Source: Eledone cirrhosa
Lineage: Eukaryota
Assembly (NCBI GenBank): GCA_964016885.1
Contig: OZ024740.1
Location: 112,716,001-112,780,000 of the forward strand
DNA length: 64,000 nucleotides
Direction of reading: 5' to 3'
In this document: positions 8,476-56,191 of the stretch, piece by piece
Numbering within the stretch: the stretch's first letter is position 1
Layout of the letters: each line of letters starts with the position of its first letter
The notes under the pieces: model-generated
Database searches by the model: none
Told to the model about the DNA's origin: nothing
Seen by the model: the letters and a program-made list of their open reading frames with translations, nothing else
Translations under genes and position numbers: made by a program

Positions 8476-10399
8476 GGTGTGTGTATTCATTTATATAATA
8501 TATATATATATATATTGATAGATAGATAGAGAAAGAGAGAGATAGGAAGAGAGAGAGAGAGAGAGAGAAGGAGAGAGAGAGAAGGAGAGAGAGAGAAGGA
8601 GAGAGAGAGAAAGAGAGAGAGAGGGGGGGGGGGGGATAAAAGAGTTATCAATGTGATAAATACAGTCGACTACTTAATCTTTCTAAGGAGTGATACATCT
8701 TTCATCAAGTAACGAAACCTGGTTTCACCGGATTTGGTATGGATGTTGTAATGTCCATGCCATTTCCAAAGACATCAACAAACTAAATGGAATATATTTA
8801 TAATGTCCTCATAGATACATATAGAATACAGTAACACATTGATTTAAAGTAAAGGAATTTTATTGATTCAAGATTTCCTATTCAAATGTATATACACGTA
8901 GACACAAGAAGAGACACAAATGGAAAAACGGAGATCCTTCCCCGGATGAAATGCCTTCCTCCAGATTTGACGGAGGAAAGCAAGATTTCAGGGACCAGAT
9001 GCCGCGAGGGCAACCGGCACAAATATGAAACAGTTAGACTATTCGATATTACAAAAATGTCGGATGGTGGAATGGCGGAATTGGAAGAGCGTAAGAAAAA
9101 AATTGCATTGCGGTTTTTTGTCCCGACTCTTTACATTCTGAGTTCAAGTGCCACTGTGGTCAACTTCGCCTTTTATCCTTATGAGGTAGATAAATTAAAG
9201 TACCCGGTACTTTATTTCATTTATTTCACAAGAATAAAAGGCGACGTTGATTCAAACAAATTTGCCCTTTACTCCACATCTGTTGATCATGGCGTCTAAA
9301 TTCGAACTGTATATTAGAAGAAAGTAAAAAATACGTGAGAAAAGGTTTAGTCTTGAGCGCAATTGATTGATTCATTTGTTTTATTAACTTTGGATGCACG
9401 TAAGGCAAAGTCATAGATGAGGTACGGACTGGGATTCGAACTGGCACTGAGAAAGTGTCATGGACACAGTCACATCCATCAACCACAATTAATTTTTTCT
9501 TTGACAAATTCGTATGATAGTATCACGTTCGAAGAAGGACACCCGTGAGATGGAAGGCTAGGGCAGCGGATGTCATTGACTGTTCTCTGCAGAAAAGTAA
9601 GTTTTCACAATCCTCTTAACGGAGCGAGCTGAAATATTCTGCCCAACCAAGGGTGTAGATTTTTACACCCTCAACATTTCACAACCCACCATGTTTCTTT
9701 TTCTCTTCATTTGTTGTCTTTTAATCATGTATAGGATTACGGAAGTATGGAGAAATAGTATACTTGGTAAATCTGCTGGATGCATGTATAAATGAATACA
9801 AATATTCATACATATATATGTACTTACATAGCAAGCGGAATTTGTCGATCTCGGATTTACAGAAACCTAGCGTGGATGTTGTATGTTATATGTGATGTAT
9901 ATTGTATGCTATACGTTATGCGTTATGTGTTGCATTCGATGTCCACGCGATGGTCCAGGTCAGTCAAAATCTTTTCCTGACTTCAGTTATTTTCGTTGCT
10001 ATGGCAATGCGGCCGGACTGTCGGTCGCTATATTTTATTTGCAAAGCTGTCTAAACGTATTGTTATAACTCTGGGGTAATATTCTCCATCGAGTGCTAAT
10101 GCATTCCGAATCTGCATTCGTTAGCTTGGCCGCAGCCAAAAGCTTCGTTGATGCTGTACTAAAATATGTACTTACATACATAGATACACACACTATGTAT
10201 ATACATGCAAACAATATATATACATATATATATATTAGAAATTGGAATAAATGCTCTGAAATAGCGATATATATGTGAATATAGACATAGAATATTCGAA
10301 AATATTCTGTATGTTTATAATAAACATTTTGAAGACCTAATCGCTATAGAATAGAATACGTCACGTATTACAATTAGATTCTCGATAAAAGCAAGGGAA

Positions 10400-10442
10400 G
10401 TAATCTACGCGTTTCATTCTTGTTAGAAATCATCAGGACCAC
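10400..10442 (-). ncRNA. Type I HHR of the 310-bp unit (also 10710-10752, 11020-11062, 11330-11372, 11640-11682)
   Basis: GUGGUC CUGAUGA U UUCU AACA AGAA U GAAA CGCG UA GAUUAC; palindromic stem III ACGCGU. Confidence 0.8.
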
Positions 10443-11964
10443 ATATCCAGTGCTTTTATCGAGAATGACACAGCTAGAGACTTATAGAATACTTAGCTGT
10501 GTACAGGAACTGGTTTGAAAGAGCGGTTGCCGGTCCGGCAGAGATTAGAAATTGGAATAAATGCTCTGAAATAGCGATATATATGTGAATATAGACATAG
10601 AATATTCGAAAATATTCTGTATGTTTATAATAAACATTTTGAAGACCTAATCGCTATAGAATAGAATACGTCACGTATTACAATTAGATTCTCGATAAAA
10701 GCAAGGGAAGTAATCTACGCGTTTCATTCTTGTTAGAAATCATCAGGACCACATATCCAGTGCTTTTATCGAGAATGACACAGCTAGAGACTTATAGAAT
10801 ACTTAGCTGTGTACAGGAACTGGTTTGAAAGAGCGGTTGCCGGTCCGGCAGAAATTAGAAATTGGAATAAATGCTCTGAAATAGCGATATATATGTGAAT
10901 ATAGACATAGAATATTCGAAAATATTCTGTATGTTTATAATAAACATTTTGAAGACCTAATCGCTATAGAATAGAATACGTCACGTATTACAATTAGATT
11001 CTCGATAAAAGCAAGGGAAGTAATCTACGCGTTTCATTCTTGTTAGAAATCATCAGGACCACATATCCAGTGCTTTTATCGAGAATGACACAGCTAGAGA
11101 CTTATAGAATACTTAGCTGTGTACAGGAACTGGTTTGAAAGAGCGGTTGCCGGTCCGGCAGAAATTAGAAATTGGAATAAATGCTCTGAAATAGCGATAT
11201 ATATGTGAATATAGACATAGAATATTCGAAAATATTCTGTATGTTTATAATAAACATTTTGAAGACCTAATCGCTATAGAATAGAATACGTCACGTATTA
11301 CAATTAGATTCTCGATAAAAGCAAGGGAAGTAATCTACGCGTTTCATTCTTGTTAGAAATCATCAGGACCACATATCCAGTGCTTTTATCGAGAATGACA
11401 CAGCTAGAGACTTATAGAATACTTAGCTGTGTACAGGAACTGGTTTGAAAGAGCGGTTGCCGGTCCGGCAGAAATTAGAAATTGGAATAAATGCTCTGAA
11501 ATAGCGATATATATGTGAATATAGACATAGAATATTCGAAAATATTCTGTATGTTTATAATAAACATTTTGAAGACCTAATCGCTATAGAATAGAATACG
11601 TCACGTATTACAATTAGATTCTCGATAAAAGCAAGGGAAGTAATCTACGCGTTTCATTCTTGTTAGAAATCATCAGGACCACATATCCAGTGCTTTTATC
11701 GAGAATGACTATCGAGAATCTAATTGTAATACGTGACGTATTCTATTCTATAGCGATTAGGTCTTCAAAATGTTTATTATAAACATACAGAATATTTTCG
11801 AATATTCTATGTCTATATTCACATATATATCGCTATTTCAGAGCATTTATTCCAATTTCTAATTTCTGCCGGACCGGCAACCGCTCTTTCAAACCAGTTC
11901 CTGTACACAGCTAAGTATTCTATAAGTCTCTAGCTGTGTCATTCTCGATAAAAGCACTGGATAT

Positions 11965-12007
11965 GTGGTCCTGATGATTTCTAACAAGAATGAAACGCGT
12001 AGATTAC
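11965..12007 (+). ncRNA. Type I HHR of the 310-bp unit, inverted arm (also 12275-12317, 12585-12627)
   Basis: gtggtc ctgatga tttctaacaagaat gaaacgcgta gattac, read directly on +. Confidence 0.8.
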
Positions 12008-12747
12008 TTCCCTTGCTTTTATCGAGAATCTAATTGTAATACGTGACGTATTCTATTCTATAGCGATTAGGTCTTCAAAATGTTTATTATAAACATACAG
12101 AATATTTTCGAATATTCTATGTCTATATTCACATATATATCGCTATTTCAGAGCATTTATTCCAATTTCTAATTTCTGCCGGACCGGCAACCGCTCTTTC
12201 AAACCAGTTCCTGTACACAGCTAAGTATTCTATAAGTCTCTAGCTGTGTCATTCTCGATAAAAGCACTGGATATGTGGTCCTGATGATTTCTAACAAGAA
12301 TGAAACGCGTAGATTACTTCCCTTGCTTTTATCGAGAATCTAATTGTAATACGTGACGTATTCTATTCTATAGCGATTAGGTCTTCAAAATGTTTATTAT
12401 AAACATACAGAATATTTTCGAATATTCTATGTCTATATTCACATATATATCGCTATTTCAGAGCATTTATTCCAATTTCTAATCTCTGCCGGACCGGCAA
12501 CCGCTCTTTCAAACCAGTTCCTGTACACAGCTAAGTATTCTATAAGTCTCTAGCTGTGTCATTCTCGATAAAAGCACTGGATATGTGGTCCTGATGATTT
12601 CTAACAAGAATGAAACGCGTAGATTACTTCCCTTGCTTTTATCGAGAATCTAATTGTAATACGTGACGTATTCTATTCTATAGCGATTAGGTCTTCAAAA
12701 TGTTTATTATAAACATACAGAATATTTTCGAATATTCTATGTCTATA

Positions 12748-12790
<43 letters not shown>

Positions 12791-12794
<4 letters not shown>

Positions 12795-12980
12795 GTTTCT
12801 ACTTTTGGCACAAGTCCAGCAATTGTCTCAATGTATTACTGGTACTTTATTTTATCGATCCCATAAGGATGAAAGGCAAAGTTAACCTCGGCGGGATTTG
12901 AACTGAAACCGTAAAAGGCCGTAACAGTATGCTGCAAAGCATGGAGTCCGACCCTCTACTGATACTGCCAATCCAACCAT
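12791..12980 (-). mobile_element. SINE family A
   Basis: ctggtactttattttatcgat...gttaacctcggcgggatttgaact. Confidence 0.85.
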
Positions 12981-13384
12981 ATGTATATGCGTGCGTGTGG
13001 TGTCCGACTTAACAAGTTCTACTCGATGACCGAAAGAGTTAAAATAATCAAAATAATTAAAATAACTCAATGATCAGGACTATTTATCAAATTACAATAT
13101 TTGAGGAAATAATAGACAAAAATATTTTTGTCTATTATTTCCTCATAATTTGTAATTTGTTATATATATATATATATAGATATAGGAAAATGTTCAAGAC
13201 CCCGACGGTAGAACGCAAATATCGTCCCAGGATGATATTTGTTTTTGAAATGCGCATAATAAAATACATGGAACTTTTTTAACCATCTTTTAATTTCTTA
13301 TATATACTCCAGTCCAATAAACTGTTGAGTGCTACTTATCCGATATTTGCATTGCTTTATTGTGCTACAATAAAACTCACCTCC

Positions 13385-13446
<62 letters not shown>

Positions 13447-13504: not shown

Positions 13505-13555
13505 AGCTTCCTGATGATTTCTCACGAAAGAAACAATTCTAGTCCTGTAGAAGCT
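13505..13555 (+). ncRNA. Type I hammerhead ribozyme in a 130-bp island between (TA)n runs
   Basis: AGCUUC CUGAUGA UUUC UCAC GAAA GAAA CA..UG UA GAAGCU; 6-bp stem I, 4-bp stem II. Confidence 0.8.
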
Positions 13556-13569
13556 CTTCTATATTAAAA

Positions 13570-19031: not shown

Positions 19032-19603
<572 letters not shown>

Positions 19604-19787: not shown

Positions 19788-20819
19788 AATTCCATATATG
19801 GTCAAAGTGATTGTCAAAAATCAGTAGTAATTCTGTGATTGCAAATTAGTAGGGGAGATGGTGGCTAAACCTGCCAGTAGGAGAAAGAGGGGAGGGGGTG
19901 GAGTAGACCCAATCAAGCGTTGGTAGTGCCAGCTACAGCTACTGCCACCCATTGATTTGGCAGGATCACAACTCATTTCTACAGCTGAGTAAACTGGAGC
20001 AACGTGAAATAAAGTGTCTTGCTTAAGGACACACCACATCACTCGGTACGAGGATCGAACTCACAACCTTTCGATTGCAAGCCCAATGCTCTAACTACTA
20101 AGCCATGCGCCTTCACTCAAGAAATTTCGTAATGCAATAAACCTCAATATTTTAGTGGTGTTTGTGACATAACTTAACACAGCTCCCACATAAAATTATG
20201 AGAGGTTTAAAATTAGATAGGAACACTTTAAATAAGCAGCTTTGAATCGTAGAATCAGGGGCCGTTTCAGGTTACCGGTAGTTTGGTAAAAAAGAAGTTA
20301 ATGAAAGGAGTAAGTATTCAGATACAGAACGATGAGAAGTGTCGTATGCATAATGGAAAGTGAAGAGCTTATTTAGAGAAGAAATAAGATTTGGTATTGA
20401 GGTAACAACATTAAAAGATGACAAGAGTGTATAGAACTTATGAAAGGAATGAATGTATAGCGTTGATGAAAATCTTTTCCAATTAATGCAAGTTTGCCAA
20501 ATACGTAAGTAGCCGTTTGTCTAGATCAAAGTAATGTTTTTAAACTACCTGAGACAAAAAATGGTAAAAAAAGAAGCGAACACTAAAAATTGGGCAACGG
20601 ACCAGATAGTTAGTCTATGTTCTTTTACTTAACTAACCAATATTATTGAGAATCAGACTTCTTATTAGTGTTTTATGGTTACCTATATTCTATGATATTT
20701 TACAGTGTTTAACAATTTATAGCATTTTGGCTACATTCAACACACATTTTGGCTACATTCAGCACACCCACACACGCATATGCATACATACACGCAAACG
20801 GACAGAAAAAACAAAACAA

Positions 20820-39911: not shown

Positions 39912-39954
39912 ACGTTGCTGACGATAGCTAATAAGCTTGAAACTAGTACAGCGT
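39912..39954 (+). ncRNA. Minimal type I HHR
   Basis: ACGUUG CUGACGA U AGCU AAUA AGCU U GAAA CUAG UA CAGCGU; palindromic stem III. Confidence 0.8.
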
Positions 39955-40061
39955 TCCTTTGTCAGTGTTGAACAAACGAGCAACGATGGTTGCTAGACAC
40001 TACGGCTTAATACGGGATGTTTGTCGGTGAATCCATACGTACATATATATATGTGTGCATG

Positions 40062-40097
<36 letters not shown>

Positions 40098-41656
40098 CTA
40101 CTGTACGTCTGTATACATATATGTATGAACGTGTACATACTTATATATATATACATATATAATAAAGTTAAATAAAAGTCAAATGATTAAAATTTAACTT
40201 CGTTTATTACTGCTATATATATTTCAGTGACAGCCATCTTTGGCTGTGACCTCTTCAGGCAGTTTGAATTAGTATGGTATAGACAAGTACATATGTTGTT
40301 TAGGTGTATGATATTGTCAATACTCTGATATGCCCAGTTCCTTGCTGGGTTGTTAATTCACTGGGGAACTGGAGTCATATGAATTCAAACAAACGAATTT
40401 TCGTGTCACAGGTCCCCTTCTCCTCTCATTGGTCAGTTATTAGTGTTGTCATTGTTGGAGTTAGCTTAAAAATTGATAAAATGGTAGAAGGGACAAGGTG
40501 TTGAAGGAACAAAATATCAAAAAATGTGTCAAACTTCCCATTGTTCAGTTCTGAGAGCATTCCTCAGTCAGAAGTCTATAGAATTCTTTCTGGGGTGAGG
40601 CTCCCTGTAGTGTTTATGCCTGCTATTGTTCAGTACATTTGACCTCCACCATTATTTTGGTACTGTTGTTGTTGTAGTGGTCAGCTTATACCTTGCTGCT
40701 GCTAACAATTTAGAAGTATTCAGTTTGTGTTTTCTCTTCATCCCACCCGCCACCATCGTAGTGGTGGTGGTGGTGGTGGGGGGGGGGGTTCTTTCATGTA
40801 TATGAAGAAATATAAGGCAATAAATGAAGAAAACAGAAGATAAATAAATAATATAATAAAATAAAATAATTAATATAATTTGTGTAATTTGAAAATAAAT
40901 AAATAAATAGAGAATAAAGAATAAAGAGTAAATGAGAGATTGGTGAAAAAGTAATGATAATGTATATGGAGAAGTGAGAAATAATTGTTTCTACTTTAGG
41001 CACAAGGCCAGCAAATTACCCAGTGCATTACTGGTACTTTATTTTATCGACCCCGTAAGGATGAAAGGCAAAGTCAACCTCGGCGGGATTTGAACTCAGA
41101 CCGTAAAGGGACGTAACTATGCTGGAAAGCATGGCGTCCGACCCTCTACCGATACTGCCAATCCACCACCCTGACGTGAGAAATAATGTAGGATAAAGTG
41201 TGTGTGTGTGTGTGCTATAACCAATCTCAAGGTCAGAATATGTTGGATAGATTGGTATGATACAAGATGTTAAGATGAGATATTCAATGTGTTTGTGTTA
41301 TAATCTATCTCAACTTAAAATAAATATAAGGTTATACAGTGAAGAGGGCAGAAAACAAATAACAAATTAATAAAGAGAAATCAAGATTTAAGATTGGAAC
41401 TTTAAAGTCAGAAATCTGGTAAATTAAAAGTGTTTGTGTTATAGATGTTGGCCAGATTATTATGGCTGTGAGCGATTCTATCTCTAGGCTATCATGGTGT
41501 CTGCTCCGCCAGGGTTGTTCCCTATGGCTTGAGGGGAGTTCACAACCTAGGGTGATGTAATTGTCCATATAGCTTGAGGGAGGTCTGGCCGAGAGGTGTT
41601 TTCATGTTCTGTGGAAGTCCCTATAGCTTGAGGGGAGTTCACATCTTCTTGTGTTG

Positions 41657-42040
41657 CTACTGTCCATATATTTTGAGAAAGGTCCCGGCTCTAAGGTGTC
41701 TGCATGTCCCGAAGAAGTCGGTTCTGAGGTTTATCAGGCCGCTTCCACCTCTTAGTATCTCGAGGGTCTCGTTCAGGCATAGTTTGCATATGCAAGATCC
41801 CCCTTTATCGGGTGGTACTTTCCTGATTATGTACCAGGCCAGAGAGTATGGGGTCCTGTCCAGCTTAAGCTTCCAGATCAGGTCGGAGAGAGCTGTGCTT
41901 TTCCTTTTGGCCTCCTTCTTGAATGAATGGCGATGGTTGTACCAGCGGTCCTTAAAGCTCGTTGATGTGGCTCCTATGTAGAGGTGTTCGGAGTTGGGGG
42001 TTTTAACCCTACAACCGTACACTATGTTCTTCTTGAGACA
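41657..42040 (-). pseudogene. PLE GIY-YIG endonuclease domain
   Basis: VYGC....YIGATSTSFKDRWYNH..SF...CKLCLNE...NLRTDFFGTCRH. Confidence 0.85.
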
Positions 42041-42708
42041 TTCATTACCAAGGGGGCTATTCTCTATTTATTTATTTATTTTCAAATTACACAAATTATA
42101 TTAATTATTTTATTTTATTATATTATTTATTTATTTTCTGTTTTCTTCATTTATTGCCTTATATTTCTTCATATACATGAAAGAACCCCCCCCCCCCACC
42201 ACCACCACCACTACGATGGTGGCGGGTGGGATGAAGAGAAAACACAAACTGAATACTTCTAAATTGTTAGCAGCAGCAAGGTATAAGCTGACCACTACAA
42301 CAACAACAGTACCAAAATAATGGTGGAGGTCAAATGTACTGAACAATAGCAGGCATAAACACTACAGGGAGCCTCACCCCAGAAAGAATTCTATAGACTT
42401 CTGACTGAGGAATGCTCTCAGAACTGAACAATGGGAAGTTTGACACATTTTTTGATATTTTGTTCCTTCAACACCTTGTCCCTTCTACCATTTTATCAAT
42501 TTTTAAGCTAACTCCAACAATGACAACACTAATAACTGACCAATGAGAGGAGAAGGGGACCTGTGACACGAAAATTCGTTTGTTTGAATTCATATGACTC
42601 CAGTTCCCCAGTGAATTAACAACCCAGCAAGGAACTGGGCATATCAGAGTATTGACAATATCATACACCTAAACAACATATGTACTTGTCTATACCATAC
42701 TAATTCAA

Positions 42709-42763
42709 ACTGCCTGAAGAGGTCACAGCCAAAGATGGCTGTCACTGAAATATATATAGCAGT
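42709..42763 (+). ncRNA. Type I HHR in pseudo-LTR (mirror copy 40209-40263 on -, sense to the ORF)
   Basis: ACUGC CUGAAGA GGUCACAGCC AAAGAU GGCUGUCACU GAAA UAUAUA UA GCAGU. Confidence 0.85.
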
Positions 42764-42910
42764 AATAAACGAAGCTAAATTTTAATCATTTGACTTTTAT
42801 TTAACTTTATTTTACACTACTCCGGAGTGACCAAACCAACCTGCGCACTTCGTCGAGTGCTCCAGCCTGCATATTGAGGTGTGGTATACAACCAACATAA
42901 ACTCAAAATC

Positions 42911-42994
<84 letters not shown>

Positions 42995-43826: not shown

Positions 43827-44026
43827 NNNNNNNNNNNNNNNNNNNNNNNNNNNNNNNNNNNNNNNNNNNNNNNNNNNNNNNNNNNNNNNNNNNNNNNNNN
43901 NNNNNNNNNNNNNNNNNNNNNNNNNNNNNNNNNNNNNNNNNNNNNNNNNNNNNNNNNNNNNNNNNNNNNNNNNNNNNNNNNNNNNNNNNNNNNNNNNNNN
44001 NNNNNNNNNNNNNNNNNNNNNNNNNN
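43827..44026. other. Assembly gap (200 N)
   Basis: Run of N. Confidence 1.
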
Positions 44027-46799: not shown

Positions 46800-49684
46800 C
46801 CTCCAAGCCGACATCTGAAGCACTTGCAGCACCACTAACAGACGGAAGAGGGGCCGGAGGTGTTTGGGGTGCAGCTGCTTCCACCACCTCACCTGCGTTG
46901 GCTTGACTCGTCGAGCTTCCAATACCCTCGCAGCGTGGAGGTGCAGGAGCTGCCTCTTCCCTACGTCTTCCCAGCCACGGCCGTTTGGCACACCACCAGA
47001 TGGGACAGAGAGCTTGCCTGATACCCAAGCCGCGCTGGTCAACATCACTCGGTTCAGGCGGCTCCGGATGATCCCACTCAGGATCCCGAGAGCGGCACGC
47101 GTTGCCGGTAGCCGATGCCCTCGCTTCCTCTATTGAGAGCGCTCTGGATTCCAATCGAGGCAGTGACTGGGAGCGGATGTTCTATTTCGCCCCACTCGTC
47201 CTCGGCCTCCCCAGCTCTGGCGCTGACCGGGGTGGCCAGTCAGCAGCAGCCTTCGTCAGGCCAATGTCTCGTCATTTAGGCGAGCGCCCATTCCAAGCGT
47301 GCCCAGGGACGCCACACACCCCACCCAGAGGTACCCCCGAGGCCAGCGCCAAGCGTTTGCGTGACCAGGTAAACGCCAAGTTATCATGGGTGATGTCTCG
47401 GCCGCAGTCAGAGTTGTTGCCTCAGAGGACACTGTGCCCCAACCCACCAAGGAGGTCATGGCTGCTCTGCGACTCAAACACCCTGAGCCACCATCTGATC
47501 TCAAACTCATACCCCCACCCGACCCCCACTTGCTCCTTGTGGCTTCTGATGCAGACATCATGTCCGCCATCAGGTCCTTCCCAGCTAGCAGCTGCGGAGG
47601 TGTTGATGGTCTCCGACCAGGCCACCTCAAGGAGTTGATATCCCCCCTCTCCGCTGAGGCCGGGCGTTGCCTTCTGAGTGCAATTGTGGAGCTCACCAAT
47701 AGGCTCATCCATGGCGCCCTGGAACCTTACACCCGAGGCCTCTTTTTTTCGGCCAGCCTCACCGCTCTCAGGAAGAAAGATGGTGGCATACGCCCCATTG
47801 CTGTGGGCAATGTCTTCCGGAGGCTGGCTGCCAAGGTGATCTGCAAGTCCGTAACAGACGAACTGGGTGAGGAGTTTAGTCCGGTGCAACTGGGTGTCGG
47901 TGTGTCCGGTGGCTGTGAGGGGGCCGCTCATGCAACCAGGCAGTTCTTCAACAGCTGCCCATCGGAACCGGCATCCAGGGACTCCAGGCACCTCATTGTC
48001 AAGCTTGACATGAGGAATGCCTTCAACTCTTTACGCTGGGATCATCTGCTCGAGGCCTGCCTCAGCCGGGCCTCCTCTGCTTACCCGCTGGCCTACCTGT
48101 CGTATGGAGCTCCTTGCTGCTGATACGGTCATACACTCGGCTACTGGGCTCCAACAGGGCGACCCTTTGAGACCCCTCCTGTTCGCCCTTGGTATTGACC
48201 AAATCGCCCGGAGTATCACGGCCCTTTTAACGTTTGGTATCTGGATGATACTACGTTAGGCGGGCCCGTACGGACGGTCTGCCATGACCTTCAATCGGTG
48301 GTTCCTGCCCTGGCGGCAATCGGCCTCCAGGTCAACTCGGCCAAGTCGGAGGTGGTGAATGTCAGCCTCGATGCTGCGAGCTTTGCAGCCTCCGTCTTGG
48401 ACGTGCGGTCCATTCTCCACCAGGTTCAGGTGATCCCCAAAGAGGATGTCCACATCCTCGGGTCACCGATCCACCCGCCGGCCATCCACTCCACCATCAG
48501 GTCCAGGCTTATACAACTCCAGACTCTCACGAGCCGACTGGGCTTGATTGACGGCCACCCAGCTCTCTTTCTGCTGAGGAACTTCTTCGCAATGCCGAAG
48601 CTCCTCTATACCCTCCGCAGCGCTCCGTGCTATACCCAGACATCTCTCCACGCTGACCTCGATACTTGTATCCGAGCTGCAGCCGAGAAGATATGCAACG
48701 TCAAGTTTGACAACATGGGGTGGCAACAGGCCACTTTACCTGTCAGGTATGGCGGCCTTGGCATCCGATCCCCAATCTCACTAGCTTTGCCGGCGTATCT
48801 TTCGTCGGTAACCTCGTGCCGCGTCCTCGTCAGCAGGGTTCTTCAAAACACAACAGAACTAACTGTGTTCAGAGAACGCGAGACCTCTTGTGAGACGTGG
48901 GACCGACTGGGACTTAGCCCAATAGACGTCCCTCCTCCTTCTCCTCCTGTTGACGTCAAGTCCCCCAACGCATTTGGGATGCCATCCAGTGCAGACTGGC
49001 CTCAGACAGGCTCACGCGCCAGCTCGACCAGCACCGCCTGGCTCCATGCCCTGCCCTCCTTCTCCACTGGCACGCAGCTAGACAACCATAGCCTGCGCAT
49101 CGGCGTTTCCCTGAGGCTCGGCCTCCGGATCTGCCAGCCACACCAATGTCGATGCGGTTCTTGTCGCCACAGTGCCGGCCGCATTCCACGCCATGCTGCC
49201 CTCAACGAAGTCATTAAGCATGGCTTGGACGCTGCAGGTTTCCTTCGCAGCTCGAGCCGGTGGGACTGGATCGATGGGAGGGCAAAAGGCCAGATGGCAT
49301 GACCGTCTTCCCGTTCCGCGGTGGCAAATCCCTAGTCTGGATGCCAATTGCACCGATGCTTTCTGCAGTCGCAACCTGGTGCAATCTGCGACTGACACAG
49401 GTTCTGCTGCACGTCGGGCTGAGGGGGCCAAACTCCTCAAATACCGGTCGCTCTCCGACAGGTTTGCGGTCGTACCCCTGGCAGTGGAAACTTCTGGTGT
49501 CCTCCGCCCCAGGGCTACCTCCTTACTCACCACCATAGGCGCTGAGCTGGCCAGCTGCAGGTGTAAGCCCCGCGAGTTGGAGTTGCTTTTCCAGCGCGTC
49601 TCCCTTGCCATCCTCCGAGGAAACGCCTTCTCCATTCTGTCCGCCGGGGATGTGGGTGGGCCTCATCGCTTAAAAGGCGGATAA
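46800..49684 (+). pseudogene. Frameshifted CRE-like non-LTR retrotransposon ORF: PHD finger, RT, CCHC and restriction-like endonuclease
   Basis: CLGC..FHHLTC...WRCRSC; KKDGGIRPIAVG, QLGVG, KLDMRNAFN, QQGDPL, WYLDD, GGLG; RH..LN, KRPDG, K..KY, PLAVETSG. Confidence 0.85.
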
Positions 49685-51368: not shown

Positions 51369-52225
51369 ATATAAAATGAGGTAAATATCTCTCTGGGTAC
51401 TAAGTACCCATAGAGATATATAGGGTGTCTATAAATATAATTGTTGTTCGATGCTACTAATTTGAAATACCAGAACTATAAAAATTGAGATGAGCAGAAC
51501 AAACAAACATTAAACAATTCTTTAAAAAAATTAAAAAATGATTCAAATATTTACCTGTTCATAATGCTACTACCGGCGGTTTCGCTTTACAAAAGATTAG
51601 AAATTCAGAGAATTTCTAACGGAAAGGTAAAGTTCATCATATAGCTATTTCCACTCTATAGGATCAAGTCAGGTAGATATTTGAATCATTTACTAATTTT
51701 TTTAAAGAATTGTTTAATGTTTGTTTGTTCTGCTCATCTCAATTTTTATAGTTCTGGTATTTCAAATTAGTACCATCGAACAACAATTATATTATAGACA
51801 CCCTATATATCTCTATGGGTACTTAGTACCCAGAGAGATATTTACTTCATTTTATATATTCTCCAATCTATGTCGAGAAAAAATTCGTTGTTGCTTACTG
51901 TTATTTTTTAGCAGCAAAGCCAGCAGCACGTCTGTAATATTTCCGCTTTCACTAGCGGACAGTTGATGTGTGGGTCACTTTAACGGCTATAACTCATACG
52001 AGCTGGTAGTTGGCAATATATTTGCAGATTATGGGACTTGATCCTATAGAGTGGAAATAGCTATCTGATGAACTTTACTTTTCCGTTACAAACTCTATGA
52101 ATTTCTAATCTTTTGTAAAGTGAAACCGCCGGTAGTAGCATTATGAACAGGTAGATATTTGAATCATTTTTTAATTTTTTTAAAGAATTGTTTAATGTTT
52201 GTTTGTTCTGCTCATCTCAATTTTT
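51369..52225. mobile_element. 478-bp HHR-containing unit, terminally redundant, with an upstream inverted copy
   Basis: aggtagatatttgaatc at 51671 and 52149; 51369-51670 is the reverse complement of the unit junction region. Confidence 0.8.
52060..52139 (+). ncRNA. Type I HHR (mirror copy 51566-51645 has C3 changed to A)
   Basis: GCUAU CUGAUGA ACUUUAC..GUAAAGU GAAA CCG C CGG UA GUAGC. Confidence 0.85.
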
Positions 52226-52229
52226 AGAT

Positions 52230-52373: not shown

Positions 52374-52432
<59 letters not shown>

Positions 52433-53965
52433 ATGAAATATAAGAATCAAAGAACTGTTCAAAACATTTTTGTGCTTACAACTGTTTCCTCCAAACCGAG
52501 GTTTGGATTCTTCGGAGCAATTTATTAATGAATGGACAGTTATATGACCTCCTTTTCACCCAAGAGACATACAGATACATATGCAAATATTGTGGGTCAA
52601 CATTCATTACAGCATTTAGAGTGGCAGTACACACTTAGAGATTACATTCATATTAAAAGGTACAATCAAAAATCAAAAATACAGGTTAAAATACATGAAA
52701 ATAAGCGGTTATATAGTGCAAATGTTATATGTGTGGCAAGCACGTGCGTCTTGTTTATATAGTGTGGCAGAGAGTTACGTGTAGTAGAAGCACTTAGGTA
52801 GGTAAACAAGAGTGTTAGGTTGGTTGATCTGGTGGCAAATTCGTTATATGATTGTTATAGTCTGTGTGTGGAGAAATGATATAAGCATTAAAAATAGTGC
52901 AAGCATTACAAATATTAAAAGTATTGGAAATGCACAGCGAAGGGATGATATGGACTTCATGTACTTCGACATTTTCATAGTCAGGGGAGTGTATTTTTCA
53001 GATTATATGCCCCTCACATAATCCACGACAATTCGATATTGAGCGTTTGACAATCCAGTTAGAGAATCGTAGTCTGATGTTCTTTAGTTCAATACAGGAG
53101 GCTGTTACGTTTCGAGAATCGACATTGAATACTACCCGGAAGTGTGTGTGTGGCTAAGGGGAGTTAATGCATGAGGGGAGGTAACTCCGAGGTTTCTATT
53201 ACTAGCTATTGAAATGTGTCTCAAAATAGACCCTAATTTCTATGGTTATGCGCAACTTACAAAAATTTCTAAAGCATAAAGTGTTTTAACTATAGAGTAG
53301 TCTATTAAGTTGTGCTGAAGGTGTTCGTATTATTATGGTGAATTAACCCCCATCGTAGGGTGCCACAAATGAATATTATAGACGACGAGCGAGGATTCTA
53401 AATTAATGATCTCTGTGGTTGTAGTCTACTCATAGGACCAGGCGCGGTGATTGCAGAATCACTTCAACACACAATGATCTCTGGTAAGTTCTGGGTCATC
53501 GCTTGCTACATTGGATGCCGAAAGATAATCATCACCAGGGCCGACCAGAGGTCAATCCGCAGTCCTCATGACCCCACTCTGACCATCAAATCATCCATAT
53601 ATGTACAACCCGCACGCCAGTTGCAATACATTCATTCTCTGCACTCAGCGTCCTGGTCCTACTGCTCAACAGCGTTACTAGATTAAATCGTTTTTCATCT
53701 GTCCAAGGAAGGCACTTCCTCCGCACAACACTACCAAGCCAATCAATTCATGCTTAAATTACCTATAGAGCGGTGTAATGTAGTTCAAGCAGGTGGATGT
53801 TGTCACACCTAACGTAGAGGTATAAATGGGTATTCTCCCTGCGAAGGGTTCCAGAGGGATGTCGTTGTTTGTGTTATAATAGATCAGTTAGTGTTGGGTA
53901 TGTGGTATAAGGTGTGCCCCTGGTGTTTGATGCTAGAGGTGGTGTTTGGTTCAAGTCCGACATTG

Positions 53966-55378
53966 CTATATATTGGGCTTAAAGTTCTGGAAGGAATGTC
54001 TGAAGCGGTGCTGGCAAGTTGCAAACACTTCAGATTTTTTGTTAAGTAGGTTACGGTTAGAGAAGATAATATTGTGGGTCTCTAGTATACAGAGGTTACA
54101 AAATTTATTAGGTGGTTTGTACGAAGTCGCGCTGCCTATCACTTCCCATTTGAGTGTGTATGGTTTATTTTTAGTTTTTAGATAGTGTATGTAGCTAGAT
54201 AGTGAGGTGGAGTTGGCTAGGCTGTGCTTTTTGAACGAGTGGATGTGCGAATTATATCTGATTTTGAAGCAGTTAGAAGTGGAGCCTACATAGGTTTCTG
54301 AAGAGTTGCTAGTTGTGACGGTGCATGAGTATATGATATCCTTGGTTAGGCATTTTTTATCTAAAGGGCAGGTTCTATTAGCTCTACAGTTACAATTATC
54401 CTGTGCGTTAGTCTGCTGGTTATAATGCAGTGCAGAAGTCTGGGTGGTAGCTATAGGATTTTGGACATTCGGGTTGTCAACCCCGGTGTTATTTCTTATA
54501 CTAGTGTTATTTCTATTGTTACTGCCGTTACTATGGTTGCTTGCTACAGAGGTATTTAGAAGGTTTGCATCCTGTTGTGATTTCATTTGTTGGAAGTAAG
54601 AATTAATTTTACTTTTATTGCTGCTAGCTATGTGGTATGCTAAGTTAGGCGTCGTAGAGTATGAGATTTTAATAGTGTTTTTGTTTAAAAGGTTGTGGTA
54701 CTTGTGTCCTAGAGGGAAGATTTTATCTAGTAGTGAGAAGAAAGCCCTAGGTATGTTGGTGGAGACATTTAGGTTGAAAGGAGGGTTGAAAAATGTAATA
54801 TTTCTTCTTCTATTTTTGTTTTTAGTGTTTGGTGTGTTGTTTCTTCCTAAGGCACTACAGTAGTTTCCGTGGTAATGGTTACTTCCGGTGGCACCCTCCG
54901 CTTTGGTGTACTTGTGGTTGCTATTATTAGGTTTCCTCATGGACATGTTGTGCGAGATGATGTTGTAGCTATGTGTTTTCTTAGGTAGGAACTCAATTTC
55001 TGTATTATGGCCGGATCTAGCTAATGCTTGATTGTAATATTGTGAGTTTTTGCTAAATATGTTTGCGTCATAGGATAGACTAGAGATTCTATTGGATACC
55101 CCCTTAGAGATAGAGTTTAATATTGATCTAGGGTGATTAGACTTGGTATCTACGTAAATGAGTTTTTTGTTAGGCTTATGGAAAGGTGTATATATTTTTG
55201 AGTCTAGGTATAGTGTGGCGTCTAGGAAGTTAACATTTTTAGAGTTTTTGTCCATGGTGATACTAAGGTTAAAGTTTTTGAATGTCTTGGGCAATTGTTT
55301 TCTAGTTCTTTCTATATTAAATTTTTTATATTCTATAAGTAGAAGTGTATCATCGCGGTACAAACCATCGTTGAGGTA
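53966..55378 (-). CDS. PLE polyprotein C-terminal half: RT (YRDD, FLD, SNHP), CxCx5C linker, GIY-YIG endonuclease
   Basis: Open for 465+ aa; CNCRANRTCPL; IIYSC...YVGST; CNLC..E...LLN.KSE....CQH; truncated at the inversion junction. Confidence 0.88.
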   Translation of the reverse strand, partial: YLNDGLYRDDTLLLIEYKKFNIERTRKQLPKTFKNFNLSITMDKNSKNVNFLDATLYLDSKIYTPFHKPNKKLIYVDTKSNHPRSILNSISKGVSNRISSLSYDANIFSKNSQYYNQALARSGHNTEIEFLPKKTHSYNIISHNMSMRKPNNSNHKYTKAEGATGSNHYHGNYCSALGRNNTPNTKNKNRRRNITFFNPPFNLNVSTNIPRAFFSLLDKIFPLGHKYHNLLNKNTIKISYSTTPNLAYHIASSNKSKINSYFQQMKSQQDANLLNTSVASNHSNGSNNRNNTSIRNNTGVDNPNVQNPIATTQTSALHYNQQTNAQDNCNCRANRTCPLDKKCLTKDIIYSCTVTTSNSSETYVGSTSNCFKIRYNSHIHSFKKHSLANSTSLSSYIHYLKTKNKPYTLKWEVIGSATSYKPPNKFCNLCILETHNIIFSNRNLLNKKSEVFATCQHRFRHSFQNFKPNI

Positions 55379-55930
55379 AGGGAGGTCCTAACTGGATTGT
55401 CAAACGCTCAATATCGAATTGTCGTGGATTATGTGAGGGGCATATAATCTGAAAAATACACTCCCCTGACTATGAAAATGTCGAAGTACATGAAGTCCAT
55501 ATCATCCCTTCGCTGTGCATTTCCAATACTTTTAATATTTGTAATGCTTGCACTATTTTTAATGCTTATATCATTTCTCCACACACAGACTATAACAATC
55601 ATATAACGAATTTGCCACCAGATCAACCAACCTAACACTCTTGTTTACCTACCTAAGTGCTTCTACTACACGTAACTCTCTGCCACACTATATAAACAAG
55701 ACGCACGTGCTTGCCACACATATAACATTTGCACTATATAACCGCTTATTTTCATGTATTTTAACCTGTATTTTTGATTTTTGATTGTACCTTTTAATAT
55801 GAATGTAATCTCTAAGTGTGTACTGCCACTCTAAATGCTGTAATGAATGTTGACCCACAATATTTGCATATGTATCTGTATGTCTCTTGGGTGAAAAGGA
55901 GGTCATATAACTGTCCATTCATTAATAAAT

Positions 55931-55977
55931 TGCTCCGAAGAATCCAAACCTCGGTTTGGAGGAAACAGTTGTAAGCA
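55931..55977 (+). ncRNA. Type I HHR-like motif with CCGAAGA core (mirror copy 52473-52519 on -)
   Basis: UGCU CCGAAGA A UCCAAACC UC GGUUUGGA G GAAA CAGUUG UA AGCA. Confidence 0.6.
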
Positions 55978-56191
55978 CAAAAATGTTTTGAACAGTTCTT
56001 TGATTCTTATATTTCATATAACTGCTCTGTAAATCATCTGATGTTTTTACATTGAGCTACTTAACTTACTGGTAATAAGGTAGTAATATATTACTGCCTA
56101 CCACTATTTAGGGTTTGTATAAAAAAATATATATAACTGCAAAAGGTTTTTGTATTTACATAACCATAAATAGTATAATTAATACTATCAA

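What the first reader, a model, noticed from the sequence alone, without database searches (positions are those of the whole stretch)
10234..12751. Near-perfect 310-bp hammerhead tandem array with central inversion (candidate active retrozyme/circRNA)
Seen: about 4.8 units, then about 3.4 inverted units, almost invariant, with one HHR each pointing outward from the centre. A perfect 16-bp repeat (attctcgataaaagca/tgcttttatcgagaat) extends stem I beyond an internal loop. Inference: transcription would release 310-nt monomers able to circularise. The array looks like a recent PLE-mediated insertion of a multimeric RNA.
Basis: partly seen in the sequence, partly recalled or inferred. Interest (0 to 1): 0.85.

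Follow-up and report, generated by a model that had tools for sequence, protein, structure and literature searches.

The report
Retrozyme array with Penelope insertion footprint
Eight near-identical copies of a 310-base repeat, each with a predicted self-cutting hammerhead RNA motif, lie head to head inside an AT microsatellite in the same layout as Penelope-like jumping-gene insertions nearby, so this is likely a young copy of a known kind of element (a retrozyme) that was likely moved by Penelope enzymes, a link so far only proposed.

Summary
In detail: 4.76 units (10234-11709, hammerhead on minus) abut 3.36 inverted units (11710-12751), each with a canonical-size type I hammerhead inside a 16-bp helix. 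Unit size, 35% GC, no ORF and the hammerhead make it a non-LTR retrozyme by sequence; cleavage and circular RNA are untested. The inversion looks biological: both outer ends abut (AT)n, one arm has a 33-42-bp extra tail, and three other hammerhead- or Penelope-ORF-bearing insertions in the window share the head-to-head layout, all published Penelope-like (PLE) hallmarks. All 8 units carry an allele rare in the family (at most 0.5% of contig depth in the best-matching run), so the array is clonal, not a collapsed consensus. The only internal variant sits one unit in from the left end and is mirrored in both arms. The arm ends lie 130-172 nt from the hammerhead cut, so the template was likely uncut multimer or circle. 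The junction itself was not seen in reads. Near-identical units in 16 other organism labels look like library carry-over. New member of a known kind, giving anatomical support for PLE mobilisation.

The parts
10234..11709 (-). Long arm: 4.76 units of 310 bp, hammerhead sense on the minus strand; outer end = unit position 1, inner end = position 236 (3 nt past the 16-bp helix arm)
11710..12751 (+). Inverted short arm: 3.36 units; exact reverse complement of 10276-11317 (0 of 1042 mismatches); inner end = unit position 154 (inside the partner helix arm), outer end = position 43 (34 if the internal ATATATAT is counted as microhomology)
11709..11710 (.). Head-to-head junction, blunt, no microhomology; 10 nt of the helix arm appear twice, separated by 3 nt
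   Evidence: not seen in reads
10234..10275 (-). 33-42-bp extension present at one end only (PLE 'tail' equivalent, inferred)
   Evidence: compare PMC8557442, PMC11167929
10400..10442 (-). Type I hammerhead (stem I 6 bp, CUGAUGA, stem II 4 bp + U.U, GAAA, stem III 2 bp with palindromic loop, GUA); repeated at 10710-10752, 11020-11062, 11330-11372, 11640-11682
11965..12007 (+). Type I hammerhead, predicted cut after 12001; repeated at 12275-12317 and 12585-12627
11941..12029 (+). 16-bp perfect helix (11941-11956 / 12014-12029) enclosing the hammerhead; one per unit
10543..10543 (.). Only internal variant, unit position 310, one unit in from the left end; mirrored at 12484 in the right arm
10440..10440 (.). 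Unit position 207: allele shared by all 8 units but rare in the family (run X1: the other base holds 460275.6 of 462455.6 summed depth); gives G.U instead of A-U in stem I
10214..10233 (.). Left (AT)n target flank
12752..12791 (.). Right (AT)n target flank, followed by a dispersed repeat (12792-12975, several 85-89% copies in the window)

Best explanation
This is a young, clonal array of a 310-bp hammerhead-bearing repeat (a non-LTR retrozyme by sequence) lying head to head inside an (AT)n microsatellite, likely inserted in one event by a Penelope-like reverse transcriptase/endonuclease acting in trans. Shown: the unit, the hammerhead fold, the head-to-head layout, (AT)n at both ends, the one-sided 33-42-bp tail, clonality, and the same layout at three other insertions in the window. 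Inferred: the enzyme nicked both strands of the (AT)n; each free 3' end primed reverse transcription inside an uncut multimeric transcript at two start sites 33-42 nt apart; both cDNAs stopped at the strong hammerhead-enclosing hairpin and were joined blunt in the centre. The variant mirrored in both arms would then have been present in the template RNA. The hammerheads are predicted to cut only as dimers; whether this locus makes monomers or circles is untested.
For: Layout matches published PLE insertions: inverted 5'-truncated copy next to the 5' end, 30-40-bp tail at one end, (TA)n bias (PMC8557442 passages; PMC3846280 passages). A purified Penelope/Poseidon protein cleaves and extends both strands of AT-rich DNA, starts internally, its two start sites delimit the tail, and uncut RNA is the main substrate (PMC11167929). 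Same layout in this window at 19120-19474 (5 of 177 mismatches), 40158-42814 (759 bp, 99.3%) and 52430-56020 (0 of 633), the last two around RT/GIY-YIG remnants; arms that have diverged 3% are not a read artefact. Arm ends lie 130-172 nt downstream of the hammerhead cut, not at it. In run X1, which has 479 bp of the unique left flank with 0 differences, 10 contigs show loose AT-rich letters before unit position 34, the same end as the right arm. All 8 units share an allele at most 0.5% frequent in X1. All 3 of 3 listed family variants inside the unit keep the fold: G.U/A-U in stem I, U.U to A-U at 10.1/11.1 (21%), a loop II change (25%). Both inner breakpoints fall at the 16-bp helix.
Against: No strand-change joint at the junction places was listed in X1, X3 or X10 (contigs drop rare forms, so weak). 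No target-site duplication can be read in (AT)n and no empty allele was seen. The unit shares no sequence with the window's PLE ends beyond 28 bp of another hammerhead at 13509-13534, so the partner element is unidentified. No genome was held, so no source array or copy census. The likeness between the tails of insertions A and B, used to argue that tails can sit on the short arm, is weak (7 of 300 shuffles as good). Rfam score far below gathering. In one preprint only 1 of 9 predicted retrozyme dimers cleaved in vitro. X1 may be the window's own source and is not independent.
Confidence: 0.6

Rival explanations
1. Same element and same PLE machinery, but the template was one circular 310-nt monomer copied by rolling-circle reverse transcription for 4.76 rounds; the cDNA then snapped back through the unit's own 16-bp inverted repeat and copied itself for 1042 nt. 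The variant at position 310 would be an error made on closing the first round.
For: Right arm is the exact reverse complement of 10276-11317, 0 mismatches, against 1 in the other register. All units share one rare allele. The single variant lies directly next to the left start site, the last base of a first round on a circle; by arithmetic about 1-3 in 310 for that place, but noticed after the fact. Both breakpoints are at the 16-bp helix. Circle-templated tandem cDNA is the published hypothesis (PMC7229834 Discussion; PMC4209133); self-priming at palindromes is proposed for Penelope.
Against: The junction is blunt with a 10-nt duplication, not the clean microhomology a snap-back should leave. 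In vitro, uncut RNA is the main PLE substrate. The variant could be a junction scar inherited from a source array.
Confidence: 0.22
2. The unit family is real but the inversion or the unit number is an assembly artefact (fold-back read or mis-join at a high-copy repeat).
For: Very high-copy family (summed contig depth 2-5.6e5 against 4.3 on the unique flank in X1; not a copy number). Perfect 1042-bp mirror. Junction not seen among listed joints. The window is scaffolded (200 N at 43827-44026).
Against: The mirror stops at unit position 43 and goes into a different flank rather than mirroring the left flank. A collapsed consensus would carry the majority allele at 10440, and none of the 8 units does. 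Three other insertions with the same layout, one with 3% diverged arms.
Confidence: 0.1
3. An ordinary hammerhead-bearing satellite array, later inverted by a DNA-level template switch at the 16-bp repeat, with no retrotransposition involved in the inversion.
For: Breakpoints at the inverted repeat; tandem growth by unequal crossover is proposed for retrozymes.
Against: Does not explain the (AT)n at both outer ends, the 33-42-bp one-sided tail, or the same layout at the window's PLE remnants.
Confidence: 0.05
4. The 310-nt unit is a circle that moves between unrelated species.
For: 20 runs under 17 organism labels in 16 studies hold 0.66-0.90 of 29 sampled words. The two foreign runs laid (X3, X10) each give one 340-letter self-overlapping contig with 2-3 differences.
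Against: X3 and X10 have no flank and none of the flank's high-copy repeats; their listed differences are the majority allele and a 21% minor allele of organism A; raw Hi-C reads of organism K show 0 reads in 1938 Mb, where 1-10 per genomic copy would be expected for a 0.5-5 Gb genome (the tool flags this as no test unless the organism is shown in the run); another sample of organism H holds 0.00. A collapsed tandem array also gives a 340-letter contig. Carry-over of organism A's most abundant repeat between libraries explains all of it. Only 2 of the 16 foreign labels were laid as contigs.
Confidence: 0.03

Closest known systems
Animal non-LTR retrozymes (Cervera and de la Pena 2020, PMC7229834; Li, Clavereau and Pollet 2026 preprint 10.64898/2026.07.22.740005)
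   Same: Tandem 150-450-bp non-coding units, low GC, one type I hammerhead per unit, short helix III as in the amphibian dimer-acting motifs, co-occurrence with PLEs.
   Different: Head-to-head arms, a one-sided tail and a microsatellite target are not described for retrozymes in the texts searched. Those papers link retrozymes to PLEs by co-occurrence and pLTR likeness. No expression or cleavage shown here.
Endonuclease-bearing Penelope-like element insertions (PMC8557442; PMC3846280; PMC11167929)
   Same: Partial tandems with an inverted 5'-truncated copy, 30-40-bp tail at one end, AT-rich target, internal start of reverse transcription, type I hammerhead with palindromic helix III.
   Different: No ORF (longest stop-free frame 59 aa); the whole insert is repeat unit; no pLTR partner identified.
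Canonical metazoan type I hammerhead (PMC4209133)
   Same: Helix I 6 bp, helix II 4 bp, helix III 2 bp with small palindromic loop, full catalytic core.
   Different: U.U at 10.1/11.1 and a further 16-bp helix beyond the internal loop; loop 1-loop 2 contacts not tested; below Rfam gathering.

Membership tests
non-LTR retrozyme | Tandem units of about 150-450 bp | tested here: met
   310-bp period, 4.76 + 3.36 units
non-LTR retrozyme | Type I hammerhead in every unit, two or more consecutive | tested here: met
   8 of 8 motifs intact by pattern and pairing scan
non-LTR retrozyme | Low GC, non-coding, no LTR | tested here: met
   GC 34.5%; longest frame 59 aa; no flanking direct repeat among self-matches of 80 bp or more. 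PBS and PPT were not searched for.
non-LTR retrozyme | Self-paired monomer | tested here: met
   Circular fold -67.4 kcal/mol, z = -4.1, 60% paired; prediction only, and the antisense strand folds as well (-76.0)
non-LTR retrozyme | Expressed as linear and circular RNA | not testable with these tools
   No run usable for this question was available
non-LTR retrozyme | Self-cleavage | not testable with these tools
   Needs an in vitro assay
canonical type I hammerhead | Core CUGANGA, GAAA, NUH; helix I 6 bp, II 4 bp, III 1-2 bp with palindromic loop | tested here: met
   palindrome pairs between two copies at -9.5 kcal/mol; definition
canonical type I hammerhead | Rfam model match at gathering score | tested here: not met
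   HH9 17.7 of 52 bits, E = 1.3
canonical type I hammerhead | Loop 1-loop 2 tertiary contacts | not tested
   Internal loop and 4-nt loop 2 are present; contacts not modelled
PLE-type insertion | Inverted 5'-truncated copy adjacent to the 5' end | tested here: met
   junction not confirmed in reads
PLE-type insertion | 30-40-bp tail at one end | tested here: met
   33-42 bp depending on how the AT microhomology is counted
PLE-type insertion | AT-rich or (TA)n target | tested here: met
   10214-10233 and 12752-12791; (AT)n is very common in this window, so weak alone
PLE-type insertion | Target-site duplication | tested here: inconclusive
   Hidden by (AT)n; no empty allele seen
autonomous PLE | RT + GIY-YIG ORF | tested here: not met
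   No ORF in the array; remnants lie elsewhere in the window

The most novel reading that the evidence does not exclude
The locus is a single-molecule record of rolling-circle reverse transcription: a Penelope-like enzyme primed from an (AT)n nick on one circular 310-nt hammerhead RNA, went round 4.76 times, left one error exactly where the first round closed, then folded back on the RNA's own hairpin sequence to build the inverted arm. Outermost-unit errors at the start site would then be a genome-wide signature of circular RNA transposition intermediates in animals.
Probability: 0.22. Interest if true: 0.78.

Novelty: new member of a known kind. Interest (0 to 1): 0.45.

Why it matters
Which enzyme mobilises animal retrozymes, and whether the template is a circle, is stated as open in the papers read. 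This array shows the PLE insertion signature on a pure retrozyme multimer, beside PLE remnants with the same signature. Its two private alleles turn the circle-versus-linear question into a count that can be run on the assembly. It also warns that a very abundant satellite can appear as a clean 310-nt 'circle' in unrelated species' sequencing runs.

Tried and rejected
No whole genome held: no copy census, source array or partner PLE search. No RNA holder listed. Rfam gathering scan: only a tRNA-like match at 20048-20105; E-value scan: microsatellite-driven miRNA matches and weak HH9. A 31-nt hammerhead pattern: 0 matches in metagenome contigs and 0 in viral contigs. Longer-protein search with the 473-aa ORF: none of 4522 candidates passed. 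Pol III A and B box patterns: none in the unit; the bacterial promoter scan was not meaningful. Tail comparisons: only A/A2 clearly related (0 of 300 shuffles); A/B, A2/B, B/C weak (7, 5, 2 of 300); the array's tail unrelated to any. Run X21 gave 0 reads, flagged by the tool as no test. Cross-species spread rejected in favour of carry-over. Literature: 'retrozyme' + 'head-to-head' 0 papers; 'non-LTR retrozyme' + 'inverted' 2 papers, the word only in reference lists; 'octopus' + 'hammerhead ribozyme' 5 papers and 'cephalopod' + 'satellite DNA' + 'Penelope' 5 papers, none on such an element by listing. The library lacks most subscription papers, and no supplements were read; supplementary figures of PMC7229834 and tables of the 2026 preprint could bear on the novelty claim. 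Earlier-findings look-ups by place, by sequence and by the first word set were empty.

Full report
Observation. The array is as described. The left arm 10234-11709 holds 4.76 units of 310 bp and the right arm 11710-12751 holds 3.36 inverted units. Each arm differs from the reference unit at one place only, the same change at unit position 310 (10543 and 12484), in the outermost unit of each arm. The right arm is the exact reverse complement of 10276-11317 (0 of 1042 mismatches; 1 in the only other register tested). Eight type I hammerheads point outward: helix I 6 bp, CUGAUGA, helix II 4 bp with U.U at 10.1/11.1, GAAA, helix III 2 bp with a palindromic loop, GUA. These are the sizes given for canonical metazoan motifs, which are said to need a second copy to cut (PMC4209133 passages). 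The 16-bp helix is beyond chance (longest in 500 shuffles 12 bp; hairpin z = -6.5). The catalytic fold without helix III scores -25.0 against -31.5 kcal/mol for the minimum fold, which keeps helices I and II. Rfam does not recognise it (17.7 of 52 bits).

What it is. Unit length, 34.5% GC, no frame over 59 aa and a hammerhead in every unit fit non-LTR retrozymes (PMC7229834 passages and Discussion; 2026 preprint, parts 1-3 of 5). The window is animal DNA rich in microsatellites; its dispersed repeat at 12792-12975 reminds me of octopus SINEs, which is recalled and comes from no call. Run X1 holds 479 bp of the unique left flank with no difference at depth 4.3, and the unit at summed depths of 2-5.6e5. 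That is not a copy number, but it shows a very abundant family; X1 may be the window's own source. In X1 nearly all depth at 10440 (460275.6 of 462455.6) has the other base, while all 8 window units share the rare one. The array is therefore clonal and not a collapsed consensus. The 3 of 3 listed variants inside the unit all keep the fold: A-U versus G.U in helix I, U.U to A-U at 10.1/11.1, and a loop II change.

The inversion. Both outer ends, the 3' ends in hammerhead sense, abut (AT)n. The left arm is 33-42 bp longer at that end. The inner ends meet blunt at the 16-bp helix, at positions 236 and 154. Published PLE insertions have an inverted 5'-truncated copy next to the 5' end, a 30-40-bp tail at one end and a microsatellite bias (PMC8557442 passages; PMC3846280 passages). 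A purified Penelope/Poseidon protein cuts and extends both strands of AT-rich DNA, starts inside the RNA, and its two start sites delimit the tail; uncut RNA was the main substrate (PMC11167929 passages and part 2 of the main text). The window gives internal controls: head-to-head arms at 19120-19474 (5 of 177 mismatches, outward hammerhead motifs), 40158-42814 (759 bp, 99.3%, outward motifs, GIY-YIG remnant at E = 0.0005, under the Pfam cut-off) and 52430-56020 (0 of 633; a 473-aa frame 36% identical to a 719-aa relative, among 71 hits, one of which carries Pfam GIY-YIG). In X1, 10 contigs have loose AT-rich letters before unit position 34, the right arm's end. Against: the junction was not among the joints listed for any of the 4 runs laid, no empty allele or target duplication was seen, and no partner PLE shares sequence with the unit.

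How it most likely works. Inferred: a PLE protein in trans nicked both strands of the (AT)n; each end primed reverse transcription at an internal start site of an uncut multimeric RNA, 172 and 130-139 nt downstream of the hammerhead cut; both cDNAs stopped at the hairpin and were joined. The mirrored variant then had to be in the template. The main rival is a circular monomer copied 4.76 times followed by snap-back through the 16-bp repeat. It explains clonality, the exact mirror, and why the single variant sits directly next to the left start site, but not well the blunt junction with a 10-nt duplication. Neither is shown. An assembly artefact is less likely: the mirror ends in a different flank, the rare allele is in all units, and a neighbour has 3% diverged arms. 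No promoter was found. In the 2026 preprint 1 of 9 tested dimers cleaved.

Other organisms. Twenty runs under 17 organism labels in 16 studies hold 0.66-0.90 of the unit's 29 sampled words, although retrozyme sequences are described as species-specific. I laid 4 of the 24 listed runs. X3 and X10 each give one 340-letter self-overlapping contig without flank, carrying organism A's majority or minor alleles; raw reads of organism K gave none in 1938 Mb (flagged as no test), and another sample of organism H holds 0.00. Carry-over of a very abundant repeat between libraries is the simplest reading; horizontal spread is not strictly excluded.

Novelty. The element is a new member of a known kind and the layout is a known PLE signature. 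Their combination was not found in the searches run (PMC7761336 passages), which cover only the open library and no supplements. Earlier AI notes of this scan report non-coding tandem units with PLE-type ends in other genomes; these are unchecked leads and suggest the pattern is not rare. Interest 0.45: ordinary in kind, but it bears directly on an open question and makes it countable.

Noticed in passing
window 19120-19555: Near-perfect palindrome (177-bp arms, 1-nt spacer) with outward type I hammerhead-like motifs (19227 minus, 19367 plus), an 81-bp one-sided tail and (TA)n flanks; a related partial copy at 13212-13387.
   Followed up: partly
window 40158-42912: Head-to-head PLE remnant: 759-bp arms 99.3% alike, hammerhead motifs at 40258 (minus) and 42714 (plus), GIY-YIG remnant 41657-42067 (minus), about 96 bp extra after the short arm.
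   Followed up: partly
window 52430-56020: 5'-truncated PLE (473-aa frame 53966-55387 minus, RT end plus GIY-YIG-like end) followed at once by a 633-bp perfect inverted copy of its 3' end; no hammerhead found there by the pattern scan.
   Followed up: partly
window 11709/11710, 42057/42058, 55387/55388: Three of the four head-to-head junctions read C then TA at or one base from the joint; too few to judge.
   Followed up: no
window 13505-13557 and 39912-39957: Two solo type I hammerhead motifs on plus; the first has an unusually long loop III and shares 28 bp at 86% with the array's motif.
   Followed up: no
window 51479-52226: Another inverted pair (192-bp arms, 96%, 364-bp spacer), not examined.
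   Followed up: no
window 47365-49684: GC-rich (52-54%) RT-bearing element remnant over several frames (RVT_1 E = 1.3e-5), unlike the AT-rich surroundings.
   Followed up: no
runs X3, X10 and others: The unit appears as a lone 340-letter self-overlapping contig in runs of other organism labels; likely carry-over, a caution for searches for circular agents in public contigs.
   Followed up: partly
window 20048-20105: tRNA-like match just above Rfam gathering (32 of 29 bits), probably the head of a SINE.
   Followed up: no
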